From Candidatus Omnitrophota bacterium (lineage in GTDB: Bacteria; Omnitrophota; Gorgyraeia; Gygaellales; Profunditerraquicolaceae), in NCBI GenBank assembly GCA_041650835.1, contig JBAZKL010000002.1, positions 14,477 to 78,476 of the forward strand: 64,000 bases of DNA, in the 5' to 3' direction. The notes under the pieces were generated by a model. That model saw only the letters and a program-made list of their open reading frames with translations, was not told the origin of the DNA and ran no database searches. Position 1 is the first letter of the stretch; the number at the start of each line of letters is the position of its first letter. Position numbers and translations under genes: made by a program. Shown in pieces: positions 1 through 9,810 of this stretch.

Positions 1-41
1 ATAAGGCGATACCATTATATGAAACATTTATTTCGGAGTCA

Positions 42-1979
42 TTGTTTGATGATGTGTTGCGGGATTATTTAATTTGTCTCTACAAATCAAAAGAGCACAG
101 AAGCAAGAACCTCGAGAAATGTCTAACTATTTGCCAAAATCTTAGGAAATTAGGAAAATTTGTTCCTTTTACGTTCGAGTTGGAAGCGGCCATTTATGAG
201 GAAATGGATCGACTAGATGAAGCCATGTCTTTATACCTCGAACTGTCGAAGCGTGAGCCAAAGAATATTCGTCATAAACTAAATTATGCCAAAGTTATGA
301 TTGATATAGGAAGGGAAAAGGACGCGGGAATAAGACTGCTATATGAGGTTAAGGATGAGGTTGAAGACAAGGATTCCTTCCTTATTTTGGCGAGAGCATT
401 CTTAAAGATTCAAAACCATGACGAATCCATAAAGCAATTATTTAAAGCGTTGGAAATCGATTTCAATAATCCGGAGATCCAGCTGTTTTATATTTACACG
501 TTTACGAGCCGAAAAGATAAAAAGAGCGAAATGCTAGATTCCGAAACTGTGCGTGAAGATTTCTTTGTGAAGATTAAAAAGAATGGACACGATCAAGAAT
601 ACTTAGTTACTGCGAATCCTAAATCGTCGATTGCCAAATTCGAGTTATATAAGGAATCCGGTTTGGGTAAGGCACTTTACGGGAAAAGGGTTGCGGAAGA
701 AATAATAGTTAAAAATGAATACAGTGCAGATGATGTTATCAAAATAGTTGAGATTAAAAGTAAATACGTGAAGGCCTTCCAGAATATTTTAGATAATTTT
801 AATATTTCTTTTCCGGACAATAAGGCAATTTGGAAAGTTGAAGCGAGTCCGGAAAGGCTGAAAGATATGCTGAACAAATCGTCGGATAGATCAACCAAGA
901 TAATGGAGATGTATTTATCAAAGAATATTACTATCGGGGCGCTTTCTGCTTTTTCTGGAAGAAGTCTATTCGTTTGTTGGGGCGCGCTTATTGGACAGGG
1001 GTCTAAATTGTACTGTGCTACTGGCAGTGCTGTGGAGCAAAGAAAAGAACAGGAGATTATTCTTAATTCAAACAGGGTTATTATCGAGCCGATCGCTTTA
1101 TTTACTCTTGGTTTTTTAAATTTAGTGGATTTGCCATCAAAGATATTTTCGGAGGTCTATGTTCTTAAGGCTACCTTGGATGAGCTAGATATGGAAATCG
1201 TAGAGTTAAGCAAAAGCGAAGATGCGGGACTTACAACGCTTTTTTCTAAAGAAGGCAAAGCATTTCGACAAGAGATCTCTGCTGAAAATATTAAGATGAA
1301 AATAGATTTTCTTAAAAAGATGCGAGATTCGCAAGGGTTGATAACAACGGGATTAGAACACCCACTGGATGATAGTTTTAATGGCAAAGAAAAGATACTA
1401 GGTTTGCCATATATATATTCGATTCAAGCTTGTGTTGAAAAGCAAGCGCCGCTGTTTTGTGACGATGTTTTTTTTAGAGAATTAATTCGCAATGAGCATA
1501 AGATAGATTCTTTCGGTGTTCAAAATTTTCTTGTAGTTGCTCTTCAAAAGGGAATCATAGCCGAAAACGATTATTGCGATAAGATATTAGAATTAATAAA
1601 GATTGGATACTTCTATCTTTCTGTATCCGCAAAAATGCTTTTTTATTATGCGGAGAAAGACAGTTTTCAAATACAGCCGGGAAATGCGTTTGACATAGCC
1701 ACCGCAATTCTTGATTCAAGAGAAACATCTATTGAATCGCTGCTTGCAGTATTAACAGATTTTATGAAGCTAATGCTTATTGAATCCCTGCCCGATGAAA
1801 TCAAAGATAAATATTTACATTTAATCATAAGTCTTTTAGCAAAACGCGGATCGCCCCATAAAATGATTAAGATTTTCAGTCAAGTTCTCGCTAAGAAGCT
1901 TGGGTTAGCTGAGCATCTTATGGTACAGGTTAATAAGAAAATAGATCAGTGGATTAAAATTAATTACCCAATCGTGTGA
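42..1979 (+). CDS. Hypothetical TPR-like protein, AT-rich; possibly 5'-truncated by the window edge
   Basis: 645-aa ORF called from a TTG. The reading frame stays open upstream to position 1, so the true start may lie outside the window. Codon usage is strongly A/T-biased compared with every downstream gene. The N-terminus has TPR-like helical repeats. I recognise no catalytic motif with confidence. Confidence 0.6.
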   Translation: MFDDVLRDYLICLYKSKEHRSKNLEKCLTICQNLRKLGKFVPFTFELEAAIYEEMDRLDEAMSLYLELSKREPKNIRHKLNYAKVMIDIGREKDAGIRLLYEVKDEVEDKDSFLILARAFLKIQNHDESIKQLFKALEIDFNNPEIQLFYIYTFTSRKDKKSEMLDSETVREDFFVKIKKNGHDQEYLVTANPKSSIAKFELYKESGLGKALYGKRVAEEIIVKNEYSADDVIKIVEIKSKYVKAFQNILDNFNISFPDNKAIWKVEASPERLKDMLNKSSDRSTKIMEMYLSKNITIGALSAFSGRSLFVCWGALIGQGSKLYCATGSAVEQRKEQEIILNSNRVIIEPIALFTLGFLNLVDLPSKIFSEVYVLKATLDELDMEIVELSKSEDAGLTTLFSKEGKAFRQEISAENIKMKIDFLKKMRDSQGLITTGLEHPLDDSFNGKEKILGLPYIYSIQACVEKQAPLFCDDVFFRELIRNEHKIDSFGVQNFLVVALQKGIIAENDYCDKILELIKIGYFYLSVSAKMLFYYAEKDSFQIQPGNAFDIATAILDSRETSIESLLAVLTDFMKLMLIESLPDEIKDKYLHLIISLLAKRGSPHKMIKIFSQVLAKKLGLAEHLMVQVNKKIDQWIKINYPIV

Positions 1980-2201
1980 AAATAAATGCGAGAATAGTTT
2001 TCCGATATCAACCGCGCGGCGGTGATTGTGAATATTAGCAAGGCATTCGTTGATTGGCAGTAAATCTTTCAAAACCCCTGCATAAGCATCCCCCGAATTA
2101 TTACCAATTTGCGGTAACGACCCCATTGTCAAAATAATCCGTTGTTGTAAGATCAAGACAGACTCGCGGGACAGCTGATCACTGTTGCCGTTTTGCAGAA
2201 A

Positions 2202-2242
2202 GCCATTTCCAGTCGACTGGCCGGAGATGGCTTTTTCTTTTT
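2202..2242 (+). terminator. Rho-independent terminator
   Basis: GCCATTTCC...GGAGATGGC 9-bp stem with one T-G wobble. It encloses the perfect 12-nt palindrome CCAGTCGACTGG and is followed by TTTTTCTTTTT. Confidence 0.6.
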
Positions 2243-2244
2243 AG

Positions 2245-2650
2245 GGTTCGACACTTTGAAAAATATTGCGTGTTCATAGATGAGGGGGACATTTGAGCGA
2301 AAAAATCTGTATATACGCAGTAGGGTGCAACACTTTGGCAAAAAAGGGCGTATATACGCGGTAGGGGGTGTTACACTTTTCGATTTTTTGCGTGTTCATA
2401 GGTGAGGGGTGCGAAACTTTGAGCCTAAAAACGCAATAACTACTCTGAGGGGCAAAAAAGTTCCGACACTTTTCGGAAAAATCCGGAATATACGCTTAGG
2501 GAGTGAAACTGGTGAAGAAAGTGAAAATATTTCCGGCAGGTTTACCAAAAACATCGTATGTAGCTAGTAGAGGGGCTTGTGAAGTGAAAATAAATAAAAT
2601 ATTTCCGTCAGTTTTCCAGTTCTTTGCGTATGTAGCTAGTAGGAGGCAGT
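2245..2650. repeat. Iteron-like direct-repeat array (putative replication origin or regulatory region)
   Basis: Three families of direct repeats. (a) TTGCGTGTTCATAGRTGAGGGG at about 2266 and 2388. (b) ATATACGC-N-TAGGGRGTG at about 2310, 2352 and 2487, each followed by ACACTTT(T/G)-N-AAAAA; the ACACTTT motif occurs 4 times. (c) A ~50-bp unit ATATTTCCGnCAGnTTTnCCA...GTATGTAGCTAGTAGnAGG, present twice at about 2528 and 2601. Confidence 0.7.
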
Positions 2651-2656
2651 GAAACT

Positions 2657-2887
2657 ATGAAAGACAAGTGCTTTGAAGCGGGAAATCTCTATCTGGCTAC
2701 GTATTTGCTCTCTTGCGGGTTTGCTATGAGGGGCATTGAGGGATCGGGACGGCTCAAGAGGATCCTGTTTGACGACATCCCGGCCGTTCATAAGGCATGC
2801 GAAGAGTTTTTCGCCGATTCGGAGGCACGCAAGCTGTTTGACTGTTACCGGAGGGTTAAGGATTATTTATTTCAAAATGGAGTTTAA
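2657..2887 (+). CDS. Small hypothetical protein, translationally coupled to the primase
   Basis: 76-aa ORF with an AGGAGG Shine-Dalgarno 8 nt upstream. Its TAA stop lies 2 nt before the primase ATG. The overlapping ORF 2736..2954 is out of frame and rejected. Confidence 0.55.
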   Translation: MKDKCFEAGNLYLATYLLSCGFAMRGIEGSGRLKRILFDDIPAVHKACEEFFADSEARKLFDCYRRVKDYLFQNGV

Positions 2888-2889
2888 AA

Positions 2890-5256
2890 ATGGAAGACGA
2901 GAGAAGAAAAGAGAAGAGAAAAATGGAAGAGATCATACCGCAGGAATTGCTTAAGCTACCGAGCTGGGTTGGGTATCAGCTCAGGCGTAACAAAGGCCGC
3001 ATTGATAAAGTTCCCATGAACGTCCTGACCGGACGTCCTGCCAAAAGTAACGATCCCAGCACATGGACAGATTTCGAGACTGCAGTTGATTTGGTGAGCC
3101 AGCGCGGATATGCGGGTGTTGGTTTTATGTTTAGTCCGCCTTATGTGGGCGTGGATATAGACCATTGCGTCAAAGACGGAGCTATCGCGCCGTATGCGGT
3201 GGAAATCTTAAAGGCGCTCAATTCATATTCGGAATATTCGCCCAGCGGCACCGGCATTCATATTCTTTGTAAAGGCGAGATCGCCCGGGCATGCAAGATT
3301 TCAAAGATCGGGCTTGAGATTTATACCAAGGGCAGATTTTTTACCGTTACCGGCAATCGCCTTGAAAATTATCCGGCTGATCTTAACGAGTGCACTGATG
3401 CGCTAACCGCCATATTCAGCCGGGTTGTAGATAAAAGGCCCGCGGACGACATTTTTGCTTTAATCTCTAAAAGTAAAGACGCGGAGAGGTTTCAGCGGCT
3501 CTATTCCGGCCAGTGGCAAAACGATTATCCATCTCAGAGCGAAGCGGATTTGGCGTTAGGCAACAAGCTGGCCTTTTGGACTGGTAAAGACGCCGGGCGT
3601 ATGGATTCGCTTTTTCGCCAGTCCGGACTCATGCGGCCCAAGTGGGATGAGAAACATTTTGGTGACGGCCGGACCTATGGCCAATCGGTCATTGAAAAGG
3701 CAATCAGCGGGTGTAGTGAGGTTTATGGAGGAAACGGGGCTTCGGGGCCGGTTGCTAAGGCTAAGCTCACGCAGGGCGAGATCATTACCCGCGATTGCGA
3801 GGAGAGCATTAAGGACTTCTTTCGCGATCAGCATGGCAATGCTTTTGTGGTGCTTCCGGTGGAAAGCCATTTTGAGGTATGCCCGACAACGGGCGTGCGC
3901 TTTAGGAATTGGAAGGCGACTCGATTCCGTGATCGCTTTGGCGTACCGCCTAAGATTGAGGCACTTAATCAGGCACGGATTCAGGTTGAGGCGCGCTGTG
4001 GAAGTTCCCGGCAGGTTGAGCTCTTTAATCGAGTAGGCTGGCATAACGGGAAAGTTTATTACGACCTGACAACGCCGGACTATCGAGGTGTAGTTATCGA
4101 TGAAACCGGCTGGGACGTTGTGCCGTTGCCGCCGATATTCAGGCGTTATCAGCATCAAGCCGAGCAGGTGATTCCGGTTAAGGGCGGCGACCCTAAGGCG
4201 ATATTACGTTTCTGCAATGTTAATCCGGACGATCATTGTCTTTTCATGGTCGCCATCGCATCATTCTTCATTCCCAATATTCCGCATGTCATTTTAAGTC
4301 AGACCGGCGAGCAGGGCTCCGGTAAATCGAATAATTCCCGCAAGATTAAAGGCTTGGGCGATCCGTCCAAGGTCATGCTGATCTCAACTCCCAAAGAATT
4401 GGAGCAGGCGCAGATGACCGCGGAGAAGCACTGGATCAGCACCTTCGATAATATCTCCAAAATTTACGAGTGGTTTAGCGATTTCCTCTGCCGAGGCGTT
4501 ACCGGCGAAGGCGACATGAAACGCAGTCTTTATACCAATGACGACGAGTTCATTCGTTCATACAAACGGTGCTTTGTATTGAATGGTATTGGCACGTCTT
4601 TGTGGCGGGCGGATTTGCTCGACCGGGCCATTATCTTTGATATTCCGGTTTTAAAGAGGAGCCGAGCAGAAAAAACTATGGAAGACGAATGGCAACGGGA
4701 GCTTCCCGGGATTCTGGGTGGATTCTTTACTGCCATTTCAAAAGCAATGAATACTTTCTCGCAAGTTACCGGACATGAAAAGTTTCGCATGTCTGATTTT
4801 GCTCAATGGGGAGGCGCGCTGGCGGGGGCATTGGGTTATTCGCAGGATGAGTTTTTCAAAAAGTATCAGGAGTCAGTGGATCGTAAATGGCAGGACACCG
4901 CGGATGACAGCTCGTTTGCCAAGAGACTGATCGAACTCATGGATAAGCACGCAGGCTATTGGGAAGGCTCGGCCGCGGAGCTTTTGCACGAGGTAACCCA
5001 CGATGACGACGATGAGAAAGGCATGCCCAAGACCGCCAAGTGGCTTTCAACAGAGCTACTGCGTATTGCGCCGGTCATGCGTAATGTCGGAGTGGATATC
5101 GTAAAGAAAGACAAGCGCGAGCCAGGTACCGGCCGCAGGCTTTTTGTTCTTAGGCGAACCGAGTCAAAGTCGTGTGAGTACGGGTGTGAGGAAGGTGTGA
5201 GCAGAGGCGTGCTTTGTGAGGATCGTGCGGAGGTGGACAGTGACCGGCCGTTCTAA
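2890..5256 (+). CDS. Primase-polymerase (AEP prim-pol) / SF3 helicase fusion replication protein
   Basis: The N-terminus carries prim-pol motifs: VGVDIDH (hhDhD) and SPSGTGIHILCKG (SxSGxGxH). The middle region carries a Walker A motif, GEQGSGKS, typical of D5/P4-type helicases. The last ~30 codons are encoded by GTGTGAGG heptamer repeats. An alternative start at M12 (position 2923) is possible. Confidence 0.85.
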   Translation: MEDERRKEKRKMEEIIPQELLKLPSWVGYQLRRNKGRIDKVPMNVLTGRPAKSNDPSTWTDFETAVDLVSQRGYAGVGFMFSPPYVGVDIDHCVKDGAIAPYAVEILKALNSYSEYSPSGTGIHILCKGEIARACKISKIGLEIYTKGRFFTVTGNRLENYPADLNECTDALTAIFSRVVDKRPADDIFALISKSKDAERFQRLYSGQWQNDYPSQSEADLALGNKLAFWTGKDAGRMDSLFRQSGLMRPKWDEKHFGDGRTYGQSVIEKAISGCSEVYGGNGASGPVAKAKLTQGEIITRDCEESIKDFFRDQHGNAFVVLPVESHFEVCPTTGVRFRNWKATRFRDRFGVPPKIEALNQARIQVEARCGSSRQVELFNRVGWHNGKVYYDLTTPDYRGVVIDETGWDVVPLPPIFRRYQHQAEQVIPVKGGDPKAILRFCNVNPDDHCLFMVAIASFFIPNIPHVILSQTGEQGSGKSNNSRKIKGLGDPSKVMLISTPKELEQAQMTAEKHWISTFDNISKIYEWFSDFLCRGVTGEGDMKRSLYTNDDEFIRSYKRCFVLNGIGTSLWRADLLDRAIIFDIPVLKRSRAEKTMEDEWQRELPGILGGFFTAISKAMNTFSQVTGHEKFRMSDFAQWGGALAGALGYSQDEFFKKYQESVDRKWQDTADDSSFAKRLIELMDKHAGYWEGSAAELLHEVTHDDDDEKGMPKTAKWLSTELLRIAPVMRNVGVDIVKKDKREPGTGRRLFVLRRTESKSCEYGCEEGVSRGVLCEDRAEVDSDRPF

Positions 5257-5470
5257 ATGTGTGAGTTTGCTCACGTGTGCTCACGCTTGCTCACAGGCGT
5301 GCTCACAAGGTCAAGGCTACAGCCATCAAGGGGTTATGTATTGTTGTGAGGTTTGTGAGGCTAAATTCCTTCTCTTTTTAGAAATCAATAAATATATAGG
5401 AAGAGGCGTATACATCGCCTATGGATGGGCAGGTGTGAGGATAGCGATTTTAGCCTCACATTGCTCACAC
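5165..5470. repeat. Dense cluster of GTGAG(G/C) / (G)CTCAC heptamers (putative second iteron set or origin)
   Basis: At least 12 copies of GTGTGAGG, TGCTCAC or CCTCACA in both orientations within ~300 bp. One stretch has four tandem TGCTCAC copies at about 5267-5310. The cluster spans the primase stop codon. ORF 5216..5536 from the track is most likely an artefact of this repeat. Confidence 0.7.
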
Positions 5471-5663
5471 ATATGCTTACGGGTCCTTCGGAGGGGGTGT
5501 GGGCCGCGGGTCGGGCGAGGCGAAGTCTGTGAGTGATGTCGGATTTTCAAAATGTCGTGTCGTGGTCGTATGGGCGTATTTCGGGGTGTCCGGTTGACAA
5601 GGGATAAAAAAGGCGTTTTCCGTCGTGAAACCGGCTTAAATTTGGCTCAAAATCGCCTCAAAA

Positions 5664-5714
5664 GCGATGTCCTAAAATACGACAAAACCGGACATTTGCG
5701 ATGTCCGAATGTCC
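5664..5714. promoter_or_regulatory. Operator-like repeats: GCGATGTCC x2 including the palindrome GGACAT-N5-ATGTCC
   Basis: GCGATGTCC occurs at 5664-5672 and 5697-5705. GGACATTTGCGATGTCC (5690-5706) is an inverted repeat, and a third ATGTCC follows at 5709-5714. The site lies just upstream of the small ORF and the HTH gene. Confidence 0.4.
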
Positions 5715-5731
5715 TACTGTAGAAGAGAATT

Positions 5732-5929
5732 ATGATCAGGGAAGCGAGCACAATTAATGTGAAGGCGGTAACGCCGCGAGGCTGGGACGCTTTAGAGATA
5801 AAGCTAAAAGGAAGGGGTCTGTCCAGCGTGGAAATTCAAGAAGCTCGTAAATCATTCTTTGAGGGGATTGAGACATTATCAAAGATGTTTTTGGCAATGT
5901 ATTCGGCAGAGAAGAAACCGCTTGTATAA
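5732..5929 (+). CDS. Small hypothetical protein
   Basis: 65-aa ORF between the repeat region and the HTH gene. It has only a weak RBS and no recognisable motif. Confidence 0.3.
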   Translation: MIREASTINVKAVTPRGWDALEIKLKGRGLSSVEIQEARKSFFEGIETLSKMFLAMYSAEKKPLV

Positions 5930-5962
5930 GGTTGTATATTACGGTATACTGGGCACCATTAG

Positions 5963-6154
5963 ATGAGGGTGTCAAATATGAAAACATACTCCATGACAGA
6001 GACGGCAAAATTACTGGGCGTGCACCGGCAGACCATGATCAATTGGATCCGCAGGGGATGGGTTAAGCCCAAGCGTGATTATAAGGATTGGCCGGTGTTT
6101 ACGGACGAGTGTATCGCCAAGATTAAGGCATGGCGAGAGACGTTAAAAGGATAA
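5963..6154 (+). CDS. Excisionase-family / AlpA-like helix-turn-helix DNA-binding protein
   Basis: 63-aa protein containing TETAKLLGVHRQTMINWIRRGWV, the classic excisionase-family HTH signature. It sits immediately upstream of the recombinase; its stop is 1 nt before the recombinase ATG. Confidence 0.7.
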   Translation: MRVSNMKTYSMTETAKLLGVHRQTMINWIRRGWVKPKRDYKDWPVFTDECIAKIKAWRETLKG

Positions 6155-6155
6155 G

Positions 6156-7835
6156 ATGAGAGTAGCGTTATATACAAGGGTAAGTACAGAAGATCAGGCG
6201 CGCGAAGGTTTTTCGCTGGAGGTGCAGAGGACATATCTTTTGCAATACGCGAAAAATTTCGGCTGGGATGTTTTTTGCAGTATGTCGGGCCGGGATATTT
6301 ATATGGATGATGGTTATTCCGGCGGCAATATGGACAGACCGGCGTTGCAGAGACTTTTGTTTGACGCGCGCAATAAGCAGTTTGATCTGATCATGGTGTA
6401 TAAGCAAGATCGCCTAAGCCGTCGGCTTAAGGACCTGTTAGGACTACTTGAGGAGATTGATTCGCTGGGCATCGGGTACAAATCAGCGACCGAGCCATTC
6501 GATACCACGTCCAGCGCCGGGAAGATGGCGATTCAGATGTTAGGCAGTTGCGCGGAGTTTGAACGCAATCGCTTAGTCGAGAGGGTATTCCCGGGCATGG
6601 TGGTTGGTGTTAAAAGAGGTCACTGGCAGGGAGCGCGCTACGCGCCGTATGGTTACCGTTACAATAAAGAAGTCAAGAAACTCGAAGTCCATCCGGAAGA
6701 GGCAAAGATCGTTAAAGAGATTTACGCGATGTACATAAGCGGCACGAGCACTTCGCGGATCGCAGGACATTATTACAATCTTGGGATCCCTTCAAGACAA
6801 GGCGGACGATTTTATAATAAATTCATTTCCAATATTCTGCAGAGCAAGGTCTATTTAGGGATGCTGGTGTGGAATAGACGTCGCTATAACACAAAAGAAA
6901 AGACAAAGAACGGCGAAGGCAAAGGTTACAAGTATGTGAATAATGATCCGTCCAAGATTATTGAAGTACCGAATACTCACGAGCCGATAATTACGCAAAG
7001 AGATTTTGATGAGGCCAGAACGCTTCTCAAACGTAACCGCACCAATGGTGTGGTTAGATTCAGGAATAATGTTTATCAGCTTTCCGGTATTCTGAAATGC
7101 AATGAGTGCGGAGGCAATTACCGCGGAATCACCGCGACAGTTAATCATCGCACCAAAATGCGGCGGCCATGGTATCGTTGTTCTTCCAAAGGCATACCTC
7201 ATATTAAGTGTAGCAATAAATCTGTTACGGCTGACGCGATCAATAAGCAGGTTTGGGATATTGTAGAAGTCATCCGTCAGAATCTTCATGTGCTTGAGGA
7301 ACTGGGTGACATGATCAAACTTAACGCATCCGAGCCGGAGCAGTTGTATGTCGAGCAATTAGAGGATAAGGACGCGCTTCTTAAGAAGAATATCGAGAAG
7401 CAAAAGGGGATCTACGAGTTGTTTTCAGAGGATAAAATTAATCTCGCGCTCTATAAGGATAGGGCCGAGCTTTTGAGTAATGAGGAGAAAAAACTAAAGC
7501 AGGATATCAAGGCGATTCAGCTTAAGATTCTGGATAAGCGTAATTCCGTTAACCTTGTAAAGGCGACGCAGGATTTCCTTTTGAGGTTACGGAGCACGCC
7601 GGATGACCGCCAGTTGGATTATCTGGTCAAAACCTTTATGCGGATCATCTTTAAATCGATCCACATCCAGAATCAGGAGATCGTGAAGTTCGATCTAAAC
7701 GAGCCTTGGAAGACTTGCTATGAAGAGGGGATGAAATGGTTGAAAACGAGCGAAAAGACGACAATACAGGCGATTCCGGAGGCAAAAGCCCGAAGAAGTT
7801 ACGTGTGCTTTTGCGCACCTTCGGATGTCAAATGA
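6156..7835 (+). CDS. Large serine recombinase (integrase)
   Basis: N-terminal resolvase catalytic motif RVALYTRVSTEDQ. It also has a recombinase domain and a zinc ribbon (CNECGGNYRG...WYRCSS), followed by a long coiled-coil C-terminus. Total length is 559 aa. Confidence 0.85.
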   Translation: MRVALYTRVSTEDQAREGFSLEVQRTYLLQYAKNFGWDVFCSMSGRDIYMDDGYSGGNMDRPALQRLLFDARNKQFDLIMVYKQDRLSRRLKDLLGLLEEIDSLGIGYKSATEPFDTTSSAGKMAIQMLGSCAEFERNRLVERVFPGMVVGVKRGHWQGARYAPYGYRYNKEVKKLEVHPEEAKIVKEIYAMYISGTSTSRIAGHYYNLGIPSRQGGRFYNKFISNILQSKVYLGMLVWNRRRYNTKEKTKNGEGKGYKYVNNDPSKIIEVPNTHEPIITQRDFDEARTLLKRNRTNGVVRFRNNVYQLSGILKCNECGGNYRGITATVNHRTKMRRPWYRCSSKGIPHIKCSNKSVTADAINKQVWDIVEVIRQNLHVLEELGDMIKLNASEPEQLYVEQLEDKDALLKKNIEKQKGIYELFSEDKINLALYKDRAELLSNEEKKLKQDIKAIQLKILDKRNSVNLVKATQDFLLRLRSTPDDRQLDYLVKTFMRIIFKSIHIQNQEIVKFDLNEPWKTCYEEGMKWLKTSEKTTIQAIPEAKARRSYVCFCAPSDVK

Positions 7836-8983
7836 ACGTGCGGGATTCGGAGGTGATCTGCGGACTTTTAAAGAATGCCGGTTTCCAGATCGTCCAGGAA
7901 GAAGATGAAGCAGATGTAGTTATCTTTAATACCTGTTCTGTCCGTCAGCATGCCGAAGATAAGGTTTGGAGCGAAATAGGAAGAATAGCTAAATCGAGAA
8001 AAAAAGATTGCTTCGGCGCAAAAAACGCGCCTCGCAATGACACTCGTTGCGGTTATCCGATTATTGGATTGGTTGGATGCATGGCGCAGAATTATAAAGA
8101 AGCAGCCTTTGACCGCTCTGAATACCTCAATTTTGTCGTGGGGCCGTCAGATATAGATAAGATTCCCGGAATTGTTGCTAAAGTCGCCAGTCGCCAGCCG
8201 TCTGTCACCAGTTCAAATTTATTTGAAACGAAAATCTGGGAGACAGATGGAACTATCAGGCCGGAAGATGTATATCATAGCGGTTTTTATGAAGAAAAAG
8301 ACCACGCCTTTGTCGTTATATCCGAAGGCTGTTCCAATTATTGTTCTTATTGCGTGGTCCCTTTTGTGCGGGGAGAAATACACCATCGTCCGCATAAAGA
8401 GATCATGAATGAAATAAAACAGGCCCTCGATAGGGGGATCAGCCGTATTACGCTCCTGGGGCAGAATGTGAATGCGTATGGATATGAAGATGTTAGTTTC
8501 GTTAAGCTTGTTGAGTTCGTTAATGCCGTGAAAGGATTAAAAGAGTTCAGTTTTATTACGTCGCACCCGAAGGATACTTCGCTTGAGTTATTCAAAGCGA
8601 TGGCTGACCTGGAAAAACTGAAAAAATACCTGCATTTGCCTGTTCAGGCCGGCTCAGACAGGATCCTGAAATTAATGAATCGCGGGTATACTCAGAAATT
8701 TTATCTGGACTTGGCGGATAATTATCGTAGAATTGTAAAGGGTGGCGTATTGACATCTGATATCATTGTCGGCTTCCCTACGGAAACCCGGGAAGAGTTC
8801 CAGGATACCTATGACCTGGTTAAACGCGTAGAATTTAACGCGGCTTATATTTTTAAGTATTCTCCCCGTCCGCATACGCATGCGCAGCACCTGGTTGATG
8901 ATGTCGATAAACAGGAAAAGGCGCGCCGGCATAAGCTGGTTTTAGAGCTGCAGAAGGCGATCTCTAAGAAGGTCAAAAAGTAA
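7736..8983 (+). CDS. miaB: tRNA-i6A37 methylthiotransferase MiaB
   Basis: N-terminal KKLRVLLRTFGCQMN motif, comparable to E. coli KKLHIKTWGCQMN. Radical-SAM motif CSNYCSYC and a TRAM C-terminus are present. The first 100 nt overlap the recombinase 3' end in another frame, so the start codon is uncertain (ATG 7736 or GTG 7805). Confidence 0.85.
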   Translation: MVENERKDDNTGDSGGKSPKKLRVLLRTFGCQMNVRDSEVICGLLKNAGFQIVQEEDEADVVIFNTCSVRQHAEDKVWSEIGRIAKSRKKDCFGAKNAPRNDTRCGYPIIGLVGCMAQNYKEAAFDRSEYLNFVVGPSDIDKIPGIVAKVASRQPSVTSSNLFETKIWETDGTIRPEDVYHSGFYEEKDHAFVVISEGCSNYCSYCVVPFVRGEIHHRPHKEIMNEIKQALDRGISRITLLGQNVNAYGYEDVSFVKLVEFVNAVKGLKEFSFITSHPKDTSLELFKAMADLEKLKKYLHLPVQAGSDRILKLMNRGYTQKFYLDLADNYRRIVKGGVLTSDIIVGFPTETREEFQDTYDLVKRVEFNAAYIFKYSPRPHTHAQHLVDDVDKQEKARRHKLVLELQKAISKKVKK

Positions 8984-8997
8984 GGAGCAGGCTTAAC

Positions 8998-9810
8998 GTG
9001 AATAATGTTTTTTTCAATATGCGCGTAAATTTTATGAGTAATTCAAAAACAGCCTTGTTTGTTTTATTCTTTCTGCTTTTGACAAGGGATCTTTCTTTCG
9101 CGCTCAATCTTGAAAAGGTCAAGGTTGATTTTCTAAGCGGGGATTATAAAGCTGCCATTAAAGAGGGTGAAAAGATCCTTGCTGCCGCGGGACACGCCCC
9201 TGATATCGACCAGCTTTATTGCCTGCTTGGGCTTTCTTATTTAAAAGACGGCAATTATCTGCGTTCATCGGATATCTTTGAGATAATCTTAAAGGAATTC
9301 AAGAATAGCCCAACGAGGGAAGAGGCCGGCCTCGGCTTGGGGGATGCTTATTTCTTACAGAAAAATTTCGAAAAAGCGGATGCCTGTTATAGGGATATGC
9401 TCACCATAAAGCCGCAGACCAAGTATAAGGCGGCACTTTTCAGCCGTTTGAGTGAGACAGCATATAAACGCGGCGATGTCGAGAGCGGAAAAAAATTTGC
9501 CGATAAATTAAAGGAAGAATTTCCCCTTAACCTGGAATCGAGCATTGAAAAAGATATTTGCTCATTAGGGGAATTCTCCAGCGGCGCTTTTTACACGGTG
9601 CAGGTCGGCTGTTTTAGCAGCCTGACCAACGCCAATAACCTGCGTAATAAATTAAGCAAAAGCGGCTATGATGCTTTTTCAGAGGTGTCGAGCGTAAAGG
9701 GAAAGCCGCTCTATCGCGTGCGTGTCGGCAAGTTCAGCAAGCGTGATGACGCTGCCGCGTTAGAAAACAAATTGTCTCAAGAAGGATATCCCACTAAGAT
9801 TTCCCCCTAA
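8998..9810 (+). CDS. TPR / SPOR-domain protein (peptidoglycan-binding)
   Basis: Contains a signal-peptide-like hydrophobic segment, TPR-like repeats and a C-terminal SPOR repeat (YTVQVGCFSS...YRVRVGKF). An alternative start at M13 (position 9034) is possible. Confidence 0.6.
   Translation: MNNVFFNMRVNFMSNSKTALFVLFFLLLTRDLSFALNLEKVKVDFLSGDYKAAIKEGEKILAAAGHAPDIDQLYCLLGLSYLKDGNYLRSSDIFEIILKEFKNSPTREEAGLGLGDAYFLQKNFEKADACYRDMLTIKPQTKYKAALFSRLSETAYKRGDVESGKKFADKLKEEFPLNLESSIEKDICSLGEFSSGAFYTVQVGCFSSLTNANNLRNKLSKSGYDAFSEVSSVKGKPLYRVRVGKFSKRDDAAALENKLSQEGYPTKISP

What the first reader, a model, noticed from the sequence alone, without database searches (positions are those of the whole stretch)
1..1979. 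AT-rich 645-aa TPR-like gene of unknown function immediately upstream of the mobile module, open at the window edge
Its base composition is conspicuously different from the rest of the window: A/T-rich codons dominate. It is followed by its own strong terminator. It abuts the iteron/primase module on the side distal to the integrase, where satellites and islands typically carry accessory cargo such as anti-phage genes. The protein has N-terminal TPR-like repeats and a C-terminal region I cannot assign. It contains a weak R-x6-H pattern (RELIRNEH) but nothing diagnostic. It may be one part of a multi-gene system continuing upstream of the window.
Basis: inference. Interest (0 to 1): 0.6.

Follow-up and report, generated by a model that had tools for sequence, protein, structure and literature searches.

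The report
Split TPR-GreA/B-C-PIN defence gene, truncated
The AT-rich gene at the window edge is the last two-thirds of a TPR-GreA/B-C-PIN ("TGP") protein, a predicted anti-phage family with one tested member, here in a two-gene form sitting in restriction-modification islands; it is an interesting but not new kind of system.

Summary
An uninterrupted reading frame runs from the window edge (nt 3) to a stop at 1977-1979. GC is 0.36 against 0.47 +/- 0.02 elsewhere. A conserved terminator hairpin lies at 2198-2243.

The gene can be assigned. Full-length relatives are about 951 aa, so about 293 N-terminal residues lie outside the window. The window part contains TPR repeats, a GreA/GreB C-terminal-like domain, a PIN domain matching Pfam PF20698 above its cut-off, and a helical tail. 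This is the TGP conflict-system architecture predicted by Kaur et al. 2021. One member, E. coli Bab/Agp, has been shown to stop phage T5.

In all 10 distinct contexts of split-form relatives, a roughly 325-340 aa gene abuts or overlaps the TGP start. That partner has a variable N-terminal domain followed by four TPRs, and in other relatives it is fused to the TGP. Eight of 11 distinct contexts (10 split, one fused) contain restriction-modification or abortive-infection genes.

The two-gene cassette also occurs without the primase/recombinase module, so it is a portable defence cassette rather than obligate cargo of that element.

Mechanism is inferred only: the protein docks on RNA polymerase, the PIN domain cuts RNA, and the partner acts as effector. 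I rate this a new member of a known kind (a split variant), with moderate interest.

The parts
3..1979 (+). 3' two-thirds (codons about 294-951 plus stop) of a TPR-GreA/B-C-PIN (TGP) gene, open at the window edge
   Evidence: No stop in 658 codons. The protein is 90% identical to the 951-aa P0001. PF20698 scores 39.7 bits against a cut-off of 27.8. dN/dS is 0.04-0.10. GC is 0.362.
51..509 (+). TPR repeats (window residues 17-169), the distal part of a longer TPR array
   Evidence: Pfam TPR_14 and TPR_19 hits. AF2 helices H17-169 have pLDDT 76-93. Foldseek hits are to TPR proteins.
546..761 (+). GreA/GreB C-terminal-like domain (residues 182-253)
   Evidence: Direct hits are weak: PF01272 E 0.2 and TIGR01462 E 0.0027 at residues 187-251. 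P0039 aligns end to end (E 9e-99) and has PF01272 at 36.8 bits, above its cut-off, at the matching position. hhalign against E. coli GreA gives E 4.5e-4 and aligns SGLGKALYGK with SPIARGLIGK. AF2 predicts a beta-rich domain, E187-253.
1029..1622 (+). PIN nuclease domain (residues 343-540; Pfam match 361-496) with acidic residues E362, D393, D487, D488
   Evidence: PF20698 E 7.3e-10, above the cut-off. AF2 gives an alpha/beta fold with pLDDT mostly 85-96. Across 151 relatives, position 362 is D in 125 and E in 23, D393 occurs in 138, D487 in 142 and D488 in 148.
1629..1964 (+). C-terminal helical region (residues 543-654), conserved in the family, no named domain
   Evidence: AF2 helices have pLDDT 83-95. 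The region aligns across P0039 and the other relatives.
1986..2058 (+). Remnant of a 126-aa third gene present in L001, L010 and L012 (cut off at 109 aa in L008). In the window it has a stop at codon 4 and about 310 nt are deleted.
   Evidence: blastn shows window 1-2058 matching L001 9899-11953, then window 2068 matching L001 12264. Alignment, gene lists, sequence.
2198..2243 (+). Intrinsic terminator of the operon
   Evidence: dG -23.7 kcal/mol, z -4.0. Found by the terminator scan. Conserved in L001 and L012.

Best explanation
The gene encodes the large subunit of a two-gene TGP conflict (anti-phage) system.

Shown here:
- The domain order is TPR array, GreA/B-C domain, PIN domain with its acidic residues intact, then a helical tail.
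- The gene is under purifying selection.
- It has foreign base composition.
- Relatives carry a translationally coupled upstream partner: a variable N-terminal domain, a disordered linker and four TPRs.
- In other relatives the partner forms the N-terminus of a single protein of about 1270 aa.
- The cassette sits in restriction-modification and abortive-infection islands.

Inferred, following Kaur et al. 2021 and the Bab/Agp work:
- The GreA/B-C domain docks on the rim of the RNA polymerase secondary channel and reports polymerase that a phage has taken over.
- The PIN domain cuts RNA at or near the polymerase.
- The TPR array holds the partner.
- The partner's N-terminal domain is the backup effector that stops or kills the cell. 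It is a helical domain of about 125 aa in this clade and a DUF4365 nuclease-like domain in a sister clade.

In the window, the cassette lies beside an iteron/primase/serine-recombinase element upstream of miaB. The cassette itself is an independently portable unit.
For: Family membership:
- PF20698 scores above its cut-off.
- There are 1578 family representatives at E<=1e-3.
- GreA/B-C is assigned through the end-to-end homologue P0039 and by hhalign.
- The PIN acidic residues are conserved.
- The AF2 model has mean pLDDT 80.9.

Partner gene:
- It is present upstream in L001-L010 and L012-L014, overlapping by 4 nt in L001, L002-L004, L007, L008, L010 and L012.
- Partner and TGP hits share contigs.

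Split versus fused forms:
- P0033 is a continuous 1282-aa ORF on two independent contigs.
- In L005 the two ORFs are in the same frame, separated by TAG-AAA.
- The partner's helical N-domain is found at the N-terminus of 41 of the 148 nearest relatives.
- The L013 partner carries DUF4365 instead, and P0061 carries a PNP_UDP_1 phosphorylase domain. This matches the 'variable effector plus constant core' pattern described in PMC8195603.

Defence context: type I R-M with YgjP, GmrSD, AbiEii, MNT/HEPN, an SNF2/methyltransferase/ResIII set, an MmeI-type methyltransferase and Fic.

Composition: GC is lower than the flanks in all 7 loci measured.

Experimental precedent: Bab/Agp blocks T5, and mutants in the GreA/B-C domain or the PIN domain lose protection.
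Against: - No experiment exists on this clade.
- The upstream partner and the first 293 residues or so are outside the window. They are inferred from relatives that are 86-96% identical at the DNA level.
- PADLOC (2023) has no model that matches.
- Direct sequence evidence for GreA/B-C in the window protein itself is weak (E 0.2 to 0.003). Profile searches of the PDB with the GreA/B-C and PIN sub-alignments found nothing significant.
- Whole-model Foldseek returned only TPR proteins.
- The first PIN acidic residue is Glu rather than the usual Asp.
- In Bab/Agp the PIN mutant was also unstable, so a catalytic role for PIN is unproven even there.
- The partner's helical N-domain has no assigned fold or function.
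- Two contexts (L005/L006 and L013) show no obvious defence neighbours.
Confidence: 0.6

Rival explanations
1. Sensor-only TGP. The large protein detects infection through its GreA/B-C and TPR parts, and its only output is activation of the partner's N-terminal effector, as proposed for Agp activating Bab. The PIN domain would be structural or regulatory, not the working nuclease.
For: In Bab/Agp, cell death is executed by Bab. The Agp PIN D762N mutant lost protection but also lost protein stability. The window protein has Glu instead of Asp at the first PIN acidic position. Partner N-domains vary like effectors.
Against: All four acidic positions are kept as Asp or Glu in at least 143 of 151 relatives. 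The gene is under strong purifying selection. This degree of conservation is expected for a working active site.
Confidence: 0.2
2. Toxin-antitoxin or addiction module. The PIN protein is a VapC-like toxin, the upstream gene encodes its antitoxin, and the pair stabilises the island or the neighbouring primase/recombinase element.
For: It is a PIN nuclease in a two-gene operon with overlapping stop and start codons. It lies next to a mobile module and has MNT/HEPN and AbiEii toxin-antitoxin modules as neighbours in relatives.
Against: The sizes and architectures are wrong: 951 aa plus about 325 aa, and the partner has no DNA-binding antitoxin domain. In at least 41 of the 148 nearest relatives the partner's N-terminal domain sits at the N-terminus of the TGP as one polypeptide, which does not fit a labile antitoxin. 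The partner's N-domain is swapped for a nuclease-like domain in a sister clade.
Confidence: 0.1
3. Housekeeping transcription or RNA-surveillance factor of the host, unrelated to conflict.
For: The GreA/B-C domain comes from general transcription factors. L005/L006 place the pair between pyrimidine-biosynthesis/cstA genes and ordinary genes.
Against: Distribution is patchy: one hit among 185,579 species genomes for this clade, although that search was pattern-based. GC is 5 sd below the window background and below the flanks in every locus measured. The TGP protein is 89.5% identical to that of L012 while MiaB is only 59% identical. The cassette has precise boundaries and moves between islands.
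Confidence: 0.05

Closest known systems
TPR-GreA/B-C-PIN ('TGP') conflict systems (Kaur, Iyer, Burroughs, Aravind, eLife 2021, PMC8195603; Pfam PF20698 PIN-TPR-GreABC)
   Same: It has the same constant core in the same order (TPR, GreA/B-C, PIN of the PF20698 type). The N-terminal module varies in the same way (helical domain, DUF4365, PNP_UDP_1 phosphorylase) across relatives.
   Different: The paper describes mostly stand-alone single genes with the effector fused. In this clade the effector-bearing N-terminal part, with four TPRs, is a separate and translationally coupled gene. The helical N-domain matches no Pfam model, and I could not test identity with EAD10.
E. coli ECOR25 Bab/Agp abortive-infection system (Ibarlosa et al., bioRxiv 10.1101/2024.11.07.622273)
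   Same: It is a two-gene system in which a TGP protein (Agp, 1094 aa) works with a separately encoded effector, and it sits in a defence island. The GreA-like S...L motif mutated in Agp appears conserved here as S219/L225. That correspondence is my inference from the GreA alignment.
   Different: The partner here is about 325 aa (helical domain, linker, TPRs), not a 109-aa Bell-domain protein. The N-terminus of the full-length relative P0001 is a TPR from about residue 13 with no room for a BASS11 amyloid motif. Any coupling would therefore be through TPR contacts, not amyloid templating.
GreA/GreB/Gfh1 transcript-cleavage factors
   Same: There is a homologous C-terminal globular domain. In Gre factors this domain binds the beta-prime rim helices at the secondary channel (established knowledge, summarised in PMC8195603).
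   Different: It lacks the N-terminal coiled coil that reaches the polymerase active site, and the domain is embedded in a 951-aa multidomain protein.
VapC-type PIN toxins
   Same: It has a PIN fold with conserved acidic metal-binding residues.
   Different: It is not a small stand-alone toxin and has no DNA-binding antitoxin. The PIN domain has a roughly 40-residue insert and a first acidic residue of Glu.

Membership tests
TGP (TPR-GreA/B-C-PIN) conflict system | PIN domain of the PF20698 type at the C-terminal side | tested here: met
   PF20698 gives E 7.3e-10 and 39.7 bits against a cut-off of 27.8, at residues 361-496. The same hit is found in all full-length relatives.
TGP (TPR-GreA/B-C-PIN) conflict system | GreA/GreB C-terminal domain between the TPR array and the PIN domain | tested here: met
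   Direct hits are weak (PF01272 E 0.2; TIGR01462 E 0.0027). The end-to-end homologue P0039 has PF01272 at 36.8 bits, above the 26.9 cut-off, at the aligned position. AF2 predicts a beta-rich domain at residues 187-253.
TGP (TPR-GreA/B-C-PIN) conflict system | TPR array N-terminal to GreA/B-C | tested here: met
   Pfam TPR hits, AF2 helical repeats and Foldseek TPR matches.
TGP (TPR-GreA/B-C-PIN) conflict system | Variable N-terminal effector or effector-associated domain on the same polypeptide | tested here: not met
   The full-length relative P0001 starts directly with a TPR. The variable domain is on a separate upstream gene in this clade. It is fused in P0033 and in 41 of the 148 nearest relatives. 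The feature is therefore met only in split form.
TGP (TPR-GreA/B-C-PIN) conflict system | Conserved PIN acidic active-site residues | tested here: met
   The window protein has E362, D393, D487 and D488. The family profile is D125/E23, D138, D142 and D148 out of 151.
TGP (TPR-GreA/B-C-PIN) conflict system | Binding to RNA polymerase and protection against phage | not testable with these tools
   This needs pull-down and plaque assays. It has been shown only for Agp, through mutants.
Bab/Agp amyloid-signalling Abi system | Adjacent small Bell-domain executioner (about 109 aa) | tested here: not met
   The partner is 325-340 aa with TPRs. There is no HeLo- or Bell-type Pfam hit even at E<=10.
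Bab/Agp amyloid-signalling Abi system | Shared BASS11 amyloid motif at the TGP N-terminus and the partner C-terminus | tested here: not met
   By inspection, P0001 residues 13-43 are already a TPR (TPR_2 hit). The partner ends in a TPR plus a short tail. No motif search model was available.
VapBC toxin-antitoxin | Small PIN toxin with an upstream DNA-binding antitoxin | tested here: not met
   The protein is 951 aa and multidomain. The partner has no HTH, AbrB or RHH hit. The partner is fused to the TGP in homologues.
HEPN RNase | Conserved R-x4-6-H motif | tested here: not met
   R492 and H499 are not among the invariant or nearly invariant columns of 15 relatives, and H is Y in most. The motif lies inside the PIN domain. 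There is no HEPN Pfam hit.

The most novel reading that the evidence does not exclude
The split TGP pair is a genuine two-subunit immune complex. The partner's uncharacterised helical N-domain of about 125 aa has an amphipathic first helix, is found on about a quarter of the nearest TGP relatives and is absent from Pfam. Under this reading it is a new cell-killing effector, possibly membrane-targeting. The TGP TPR array holds it inactive and releases it when the GreA/B-C domain senses phage-modified RNA polymerase. That would be a non-amyloid coupling mode, different from Bab/Agp.
Probability: 0.25. Interest if true: 0.55.

Novelty: new member of a known kind. Interest (0 to 1): 0.35.

Why it matters
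TGP systems are widespread. This search found 1578 clusters at 50% identity. Yet they are almost unstudied: there is one preprint on one E. coli member, and no PADLOC 2023 model matched the window protein, its full-length relative or the partners. They are proposed to guard the RNA polymerase secondary channel, an unusual sensing point for bacterial immunity.

This locus adds three things:
- A clean example from the candidate phylum Omnitrophota.
- Evidence that the effector-bearing N-terminal part can be a separate gene with interchangeable effector domains. That gives a natural way to dissect sensor from effector.
- Evidence that the cassette travels as a unit with precise boundaries between restriction-modification islands and next to a small integrative element.

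None of this changes the known picture of the family, so the value is incremental.

Tried and rejected
- **PADLOC:** no hit for the window protein, the full-length relative or three partners.
- **PDB profile searches:** the whole alignment returned only TPR proteins. The GreA/B-C and PIN sub-alignments returned nothing significant.
- **Partner N-domain:** there was no Pfam hit at E<=10 for ten diverse copies. A profile search of the 5.8-billion-protein set found only one fragment. It therefore remains unknown whether this domain is EAD10 or occurs on other immune cores.
- **HEPN reading of RELIRNEH:** rejected, because the motif is not conserved and lies inside the PIN domain.
- **Phage origin:** no relatives in 50,697 phage records or in IMG/VR. 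Only 12 distant plasmid hits were found.
- **Structured RNA:** no Rfam family in window 1-9000.
- **Obligate cargo of the primase/recombinase element:** rejected, because L007, L002-L004, L005/L006 and L013-L016 carry the cassette without that module.
- **Literature false lead:** the 'GreA' term in the DefensePredictor paper only matched the word 'greater'.
Full report
**1. The observation**

The ORF list gives 42..1979 (+), 645 aa, starting at the first TTG. Translating from nt 3 shows the same frame open for 658 codons back to the window edge.

GC is 0.362, against a sliding-window mean of 0.473 (sd 0.022, minimum 0.411) for the rest of the window. GC3 is 0.36, against 0.47-0.57 for the neighbouring primase, recombinase and miaB genes.

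A hairpin at 2198-2235 followed by a T-run folds at -23.7 kcal/mol (z -4.0; none of 200 shuffles folds as well). It is conserved in two related loci. All parts of the observation are confirmed.

**2. What the protein is**

- *PIN domain.* Pfam places residues 361-496 in PF20698, 'PIN domain associated with the TPR-GreAB-C-PIN system' (39.7 bits, cut-off 27.8). TPR hits cover residues 60-175, and there is a weak GreA_GreB C-terminal hit at 189-252.
- *Independent GreA hit.* NCBIfam independently gives a weak greA hit at 187-251.
- *Full length.* Homologues in the 5.8-billion-protein set are 951-959 aa, the closest at 90% identity. L009 overlaps window 1-444 at 96.4% identity and places the window's first codon at about residue 294.
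- *Family size.* An exhaustive HMMER search finds 1578 representatives at E<=1e-3 and 913 at E<=1e-10. Most are 1240-1310 aa long.
- *GreA/B-C domain.* P0039 aligns with the window protein end to end (32% identity, E 9e-99). It carries a significant GreA_GreB domain (36.8 bits, cut-off 26.9) exactly where window residues 182-251 align. A profile of that region aligns with E. coli GreA residues 99-147 (hhalign E 4.5e-4). SGLGKALYGK falls on SPIARGLIGK.
- *Structure model.* The AlphaFold2 model has mean pLDDT 80.9. It shows TPR helices at 17-169, a beta-rich domain at 187-253, a low-confidence linker, an alpha/beta domain at 343-540 and a helical tail at 543-654.
- *PIN active site.* Across 151 relatives the expected acidic positions are conserved. 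Position 362 is D in 125 and E in 23 (the window has E). D393 occurs in 138, D487 in 142 and D488 in 148.
- *Selection.* dN/dS against five relatives is 0.04-0.10.

**3. What is known about this architecture**

Kaur et al. (PMC8195603) defined a conflict system with a constant TPR / GreA/B-C / PIN region preceded by EAD10 or one of 13 effector domains. They found it mostly as stand-alone genes. They proposed that GreA/B-C engages the RNA polymerase secondary channel, PIN cleaves the transcript, and the N-terminal effector is a fallback suicide arm.

Ibarlosa et al. (bioRxiv 10.1101/2024.11.07.622273) showed that E. coli ECOR25 Agp, a 1094-aa TGP, works with the 109-aa Bell-domain protein Bab to abort T5 infection through a shared amyloid motif. 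Mutations in the GreA/B-C domain and a PIN mutation abolished protection, but the PIN mutant was also unstable.

PADLOC 2023 has no model that matches.

**4. The upstream partner**

I looked at 10 distinct contexts of split-form relatives: L001, L002-L004, L005/L006, L007, L008, L009, L010, L012, L013 and L014. In each, a 325-340 aa gene ends at or overlaps the TGP start. The overlap is ATGA or GTGA in the close relatives. The partner's own homologues sit on the same contigs as the TGP hits.

Its AF2 model (pLDDT 76) has a helical N-domain at 1-123, a disordered linker at 125-176 and four TPRs at 177-320.

Several lines show that split and fused forms interconvert and that the partner is the effector-bearing arm:

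- P0033 (1282 aa, 48% identical to the window protein) is the two proteins fused in one continuous ORF on two independent contigs.
- In L005 the two ORFs are in the same frame, separated only by TAG-AAA.
- A jackhmmer search finds the partner's N-domain at the N-terminus of 41 of the 148 nearest TGP representatives.
- In L013 and in P0032 the partner keeps the TPR part (E 1e-63 for L013 against the partner profile), but its N-domain is replaced by a DUF4365 nuclease-like domain.
- P0061 carries a PNP_UDP_1 phosphorylase domain at its N-terminus.

So the partner corresponds to the 'variable effector' arm of TGP proteins, split off as a separate gene in this clade. The helical N-domain has no Pfam match. 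Its fold could not be assigned.

**5. Context and mobility**

The leftward proxy L009 and the relatives L001, L007, L008 and L010 read HsdM-HsdS-HsdR-YgjP-partner-TGP (L007 has a DUF6119 gene between HsdS and HsdR). RadC lies upstream in L007 and L008, and AbiEii in L008. Other contexts are:

| Locus | Neighbouring genes |
|---|---|
| L012 (Candidatus Omnitrophota MAG, 492-kb contig) | A different type I R-M system and two metallo-beta-lactamase-fold genes upstream |
| L002-L004 | SNF2/methyltransferase/ResIII upstream; UvrD, GIY-YIG and AbiEii downstream |
| L014 | DUF1016/SNase and Fic |
| L015/L016 (fused form) | PLD-SNF2, an MmeI-type methyltransferase and another methyltransferase |
| L005/L006 and L013 | No obvious defence neighbours |

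Homology between L007 and L012 (95%) starts 12 nt before the partner's ATG and ends at the TGP stop. The pair is therefore a discrete cassette. It is GC-poor relative to both flanks in all seven loci measured.

The window and L012 share the order TGP, iterons, primase, serine recombinase, miaB. Protein identities are 89.5% for TGP, 78% for the N-terminal part of primase, 75% for the recombinase and 59% for MiaB. The cassette and the element are thus both more recently shared than the core gene.

L001 keeps the iteron-like repeats and a 60-aa ORF but has MNT/HEPN where the primase and recombinase would be. L007 has GmrSD directly after TGP. The association with the primase/recombinase module is therefore local, not obligatory. 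Whether the R-M and TGP genes lie inside that element could not be decided.

There are no relatives in phage genomes or IMG/VR, and 12 distant ones on plasmids, 9 of them predicted conjugative.

**6. Third gene and terminator**

In L001, L010 and L012 a 126-aa gene with no Pfam match follows TGP. In L008 it is cut off by the contig end at 109 aa. In the window only its first 75 nt or so survive (1986-2058). They carry a stop at codon 4, and about 310 nt are deleted. This explains the 219-nt gap between the TGP stop and the conserved terminator.

**7. Mechanism**

Shown here: the domain composition, intact acidic residues, purifying selection, the coupled partner with interchangeable N-domains, the defence-island context and the foreign composition.

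Inferred from the literature: the protein docks on RNA polymerase through GreA/B-C, PIN cuts RNA, and the partner's effector is activated as an abortive-infection arm.

My estimates are as follows:

| Claim | Confidence |
|---|---|
| The protein is a TGP family member | about 0.95 |
| The pair is an anti-phage system | about 0.7 |
| The specific mechanism is correct | about 0.4 |

The reported confidence of 0.6 blends these.

Rivals are a sensor-only TGP with a non-catalytic PIN (0.2), a toxin-antitoxin or addiction module (0.1) and a housekeeping factor (0.05).

**8. Novelty and score**

The family and its predicted role are published, and one member has been validated. This is a new member from Omnitrophota. 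It has a split-gene organisation that I did not find described in the main text of the two papers I read; their supplementary neighbourhood tables were not checked. Interest is 0.35.

Noticed in passing
window 1986-2058: Decayed remnant of a 126-aa gene that follows TGP intact in L001, L010 and L012 (cut off at 109 aa in L008). It has a stop at codon 4 and about 310 nt are deleted. The intact protein has no Pfam match, and its role (a third component?) is unknown.
   Followed up: partly
window 7590-7835; L001 13957-14138: The last 146 nt or so of the serine-recombinase ORF, before the miaB start at 7736, are conserved (76%) upstream of miaB in L001. L001 has no recombinase. Either L001 keeps a remnant of the recombinase gene, or the recombinase ORF reads across the element/host junction. 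The recombinase ORF also overlaps the miaB ORF by 100 nt.
   Followed up: partly
window 2244-2431 and 5732-5929; L001 12264-12801: The iteron-like repeats and a 60-65 aa ORF of the mobile module are also present in L001, where the primase and recombinase are replaced by an MNT/HEPN pair. This looks like a reduced or reshuffled version of the same element.
   Followed up: partly
window 2890-5256; L012 13480-15609: The primase (with an NrS-1 polymerase helix-bundle domain, PF22763) is homologous to the L012 primase only over its first 328 aa (78%). The C-terminal halves differ (788 vs 709 aa), suggesting domain replacement within the element.
   Followed up: no
L005 9995-10003; L015 6001-9849: In L005 the partner and TGP are in the same reading frame, separated by TAG-AAA. 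P0033 (L015/L016) is the continuous fused form. This is a clean gene fission or fusion, or possibly stop-codon read-through.
   Followed up: partly
L013 4985-6001; protein P0032: A sister clade of partner proteins keeps the C-terminal TPR part but carries a DUF4365 (PF14280) nuclease-like N-domain instead of the helical domain.
   Followed up: partly
L001, L007-L010 (gene directly upstream of the partner): A YgjP-like (PF01863) metallopeptidase gene always sits between hsdR and the partner gene in the closest relatives. It overlaps hsdR, so it probably belongs to the type I R-M unit rather than to the TGP pair.
   Followed up: no
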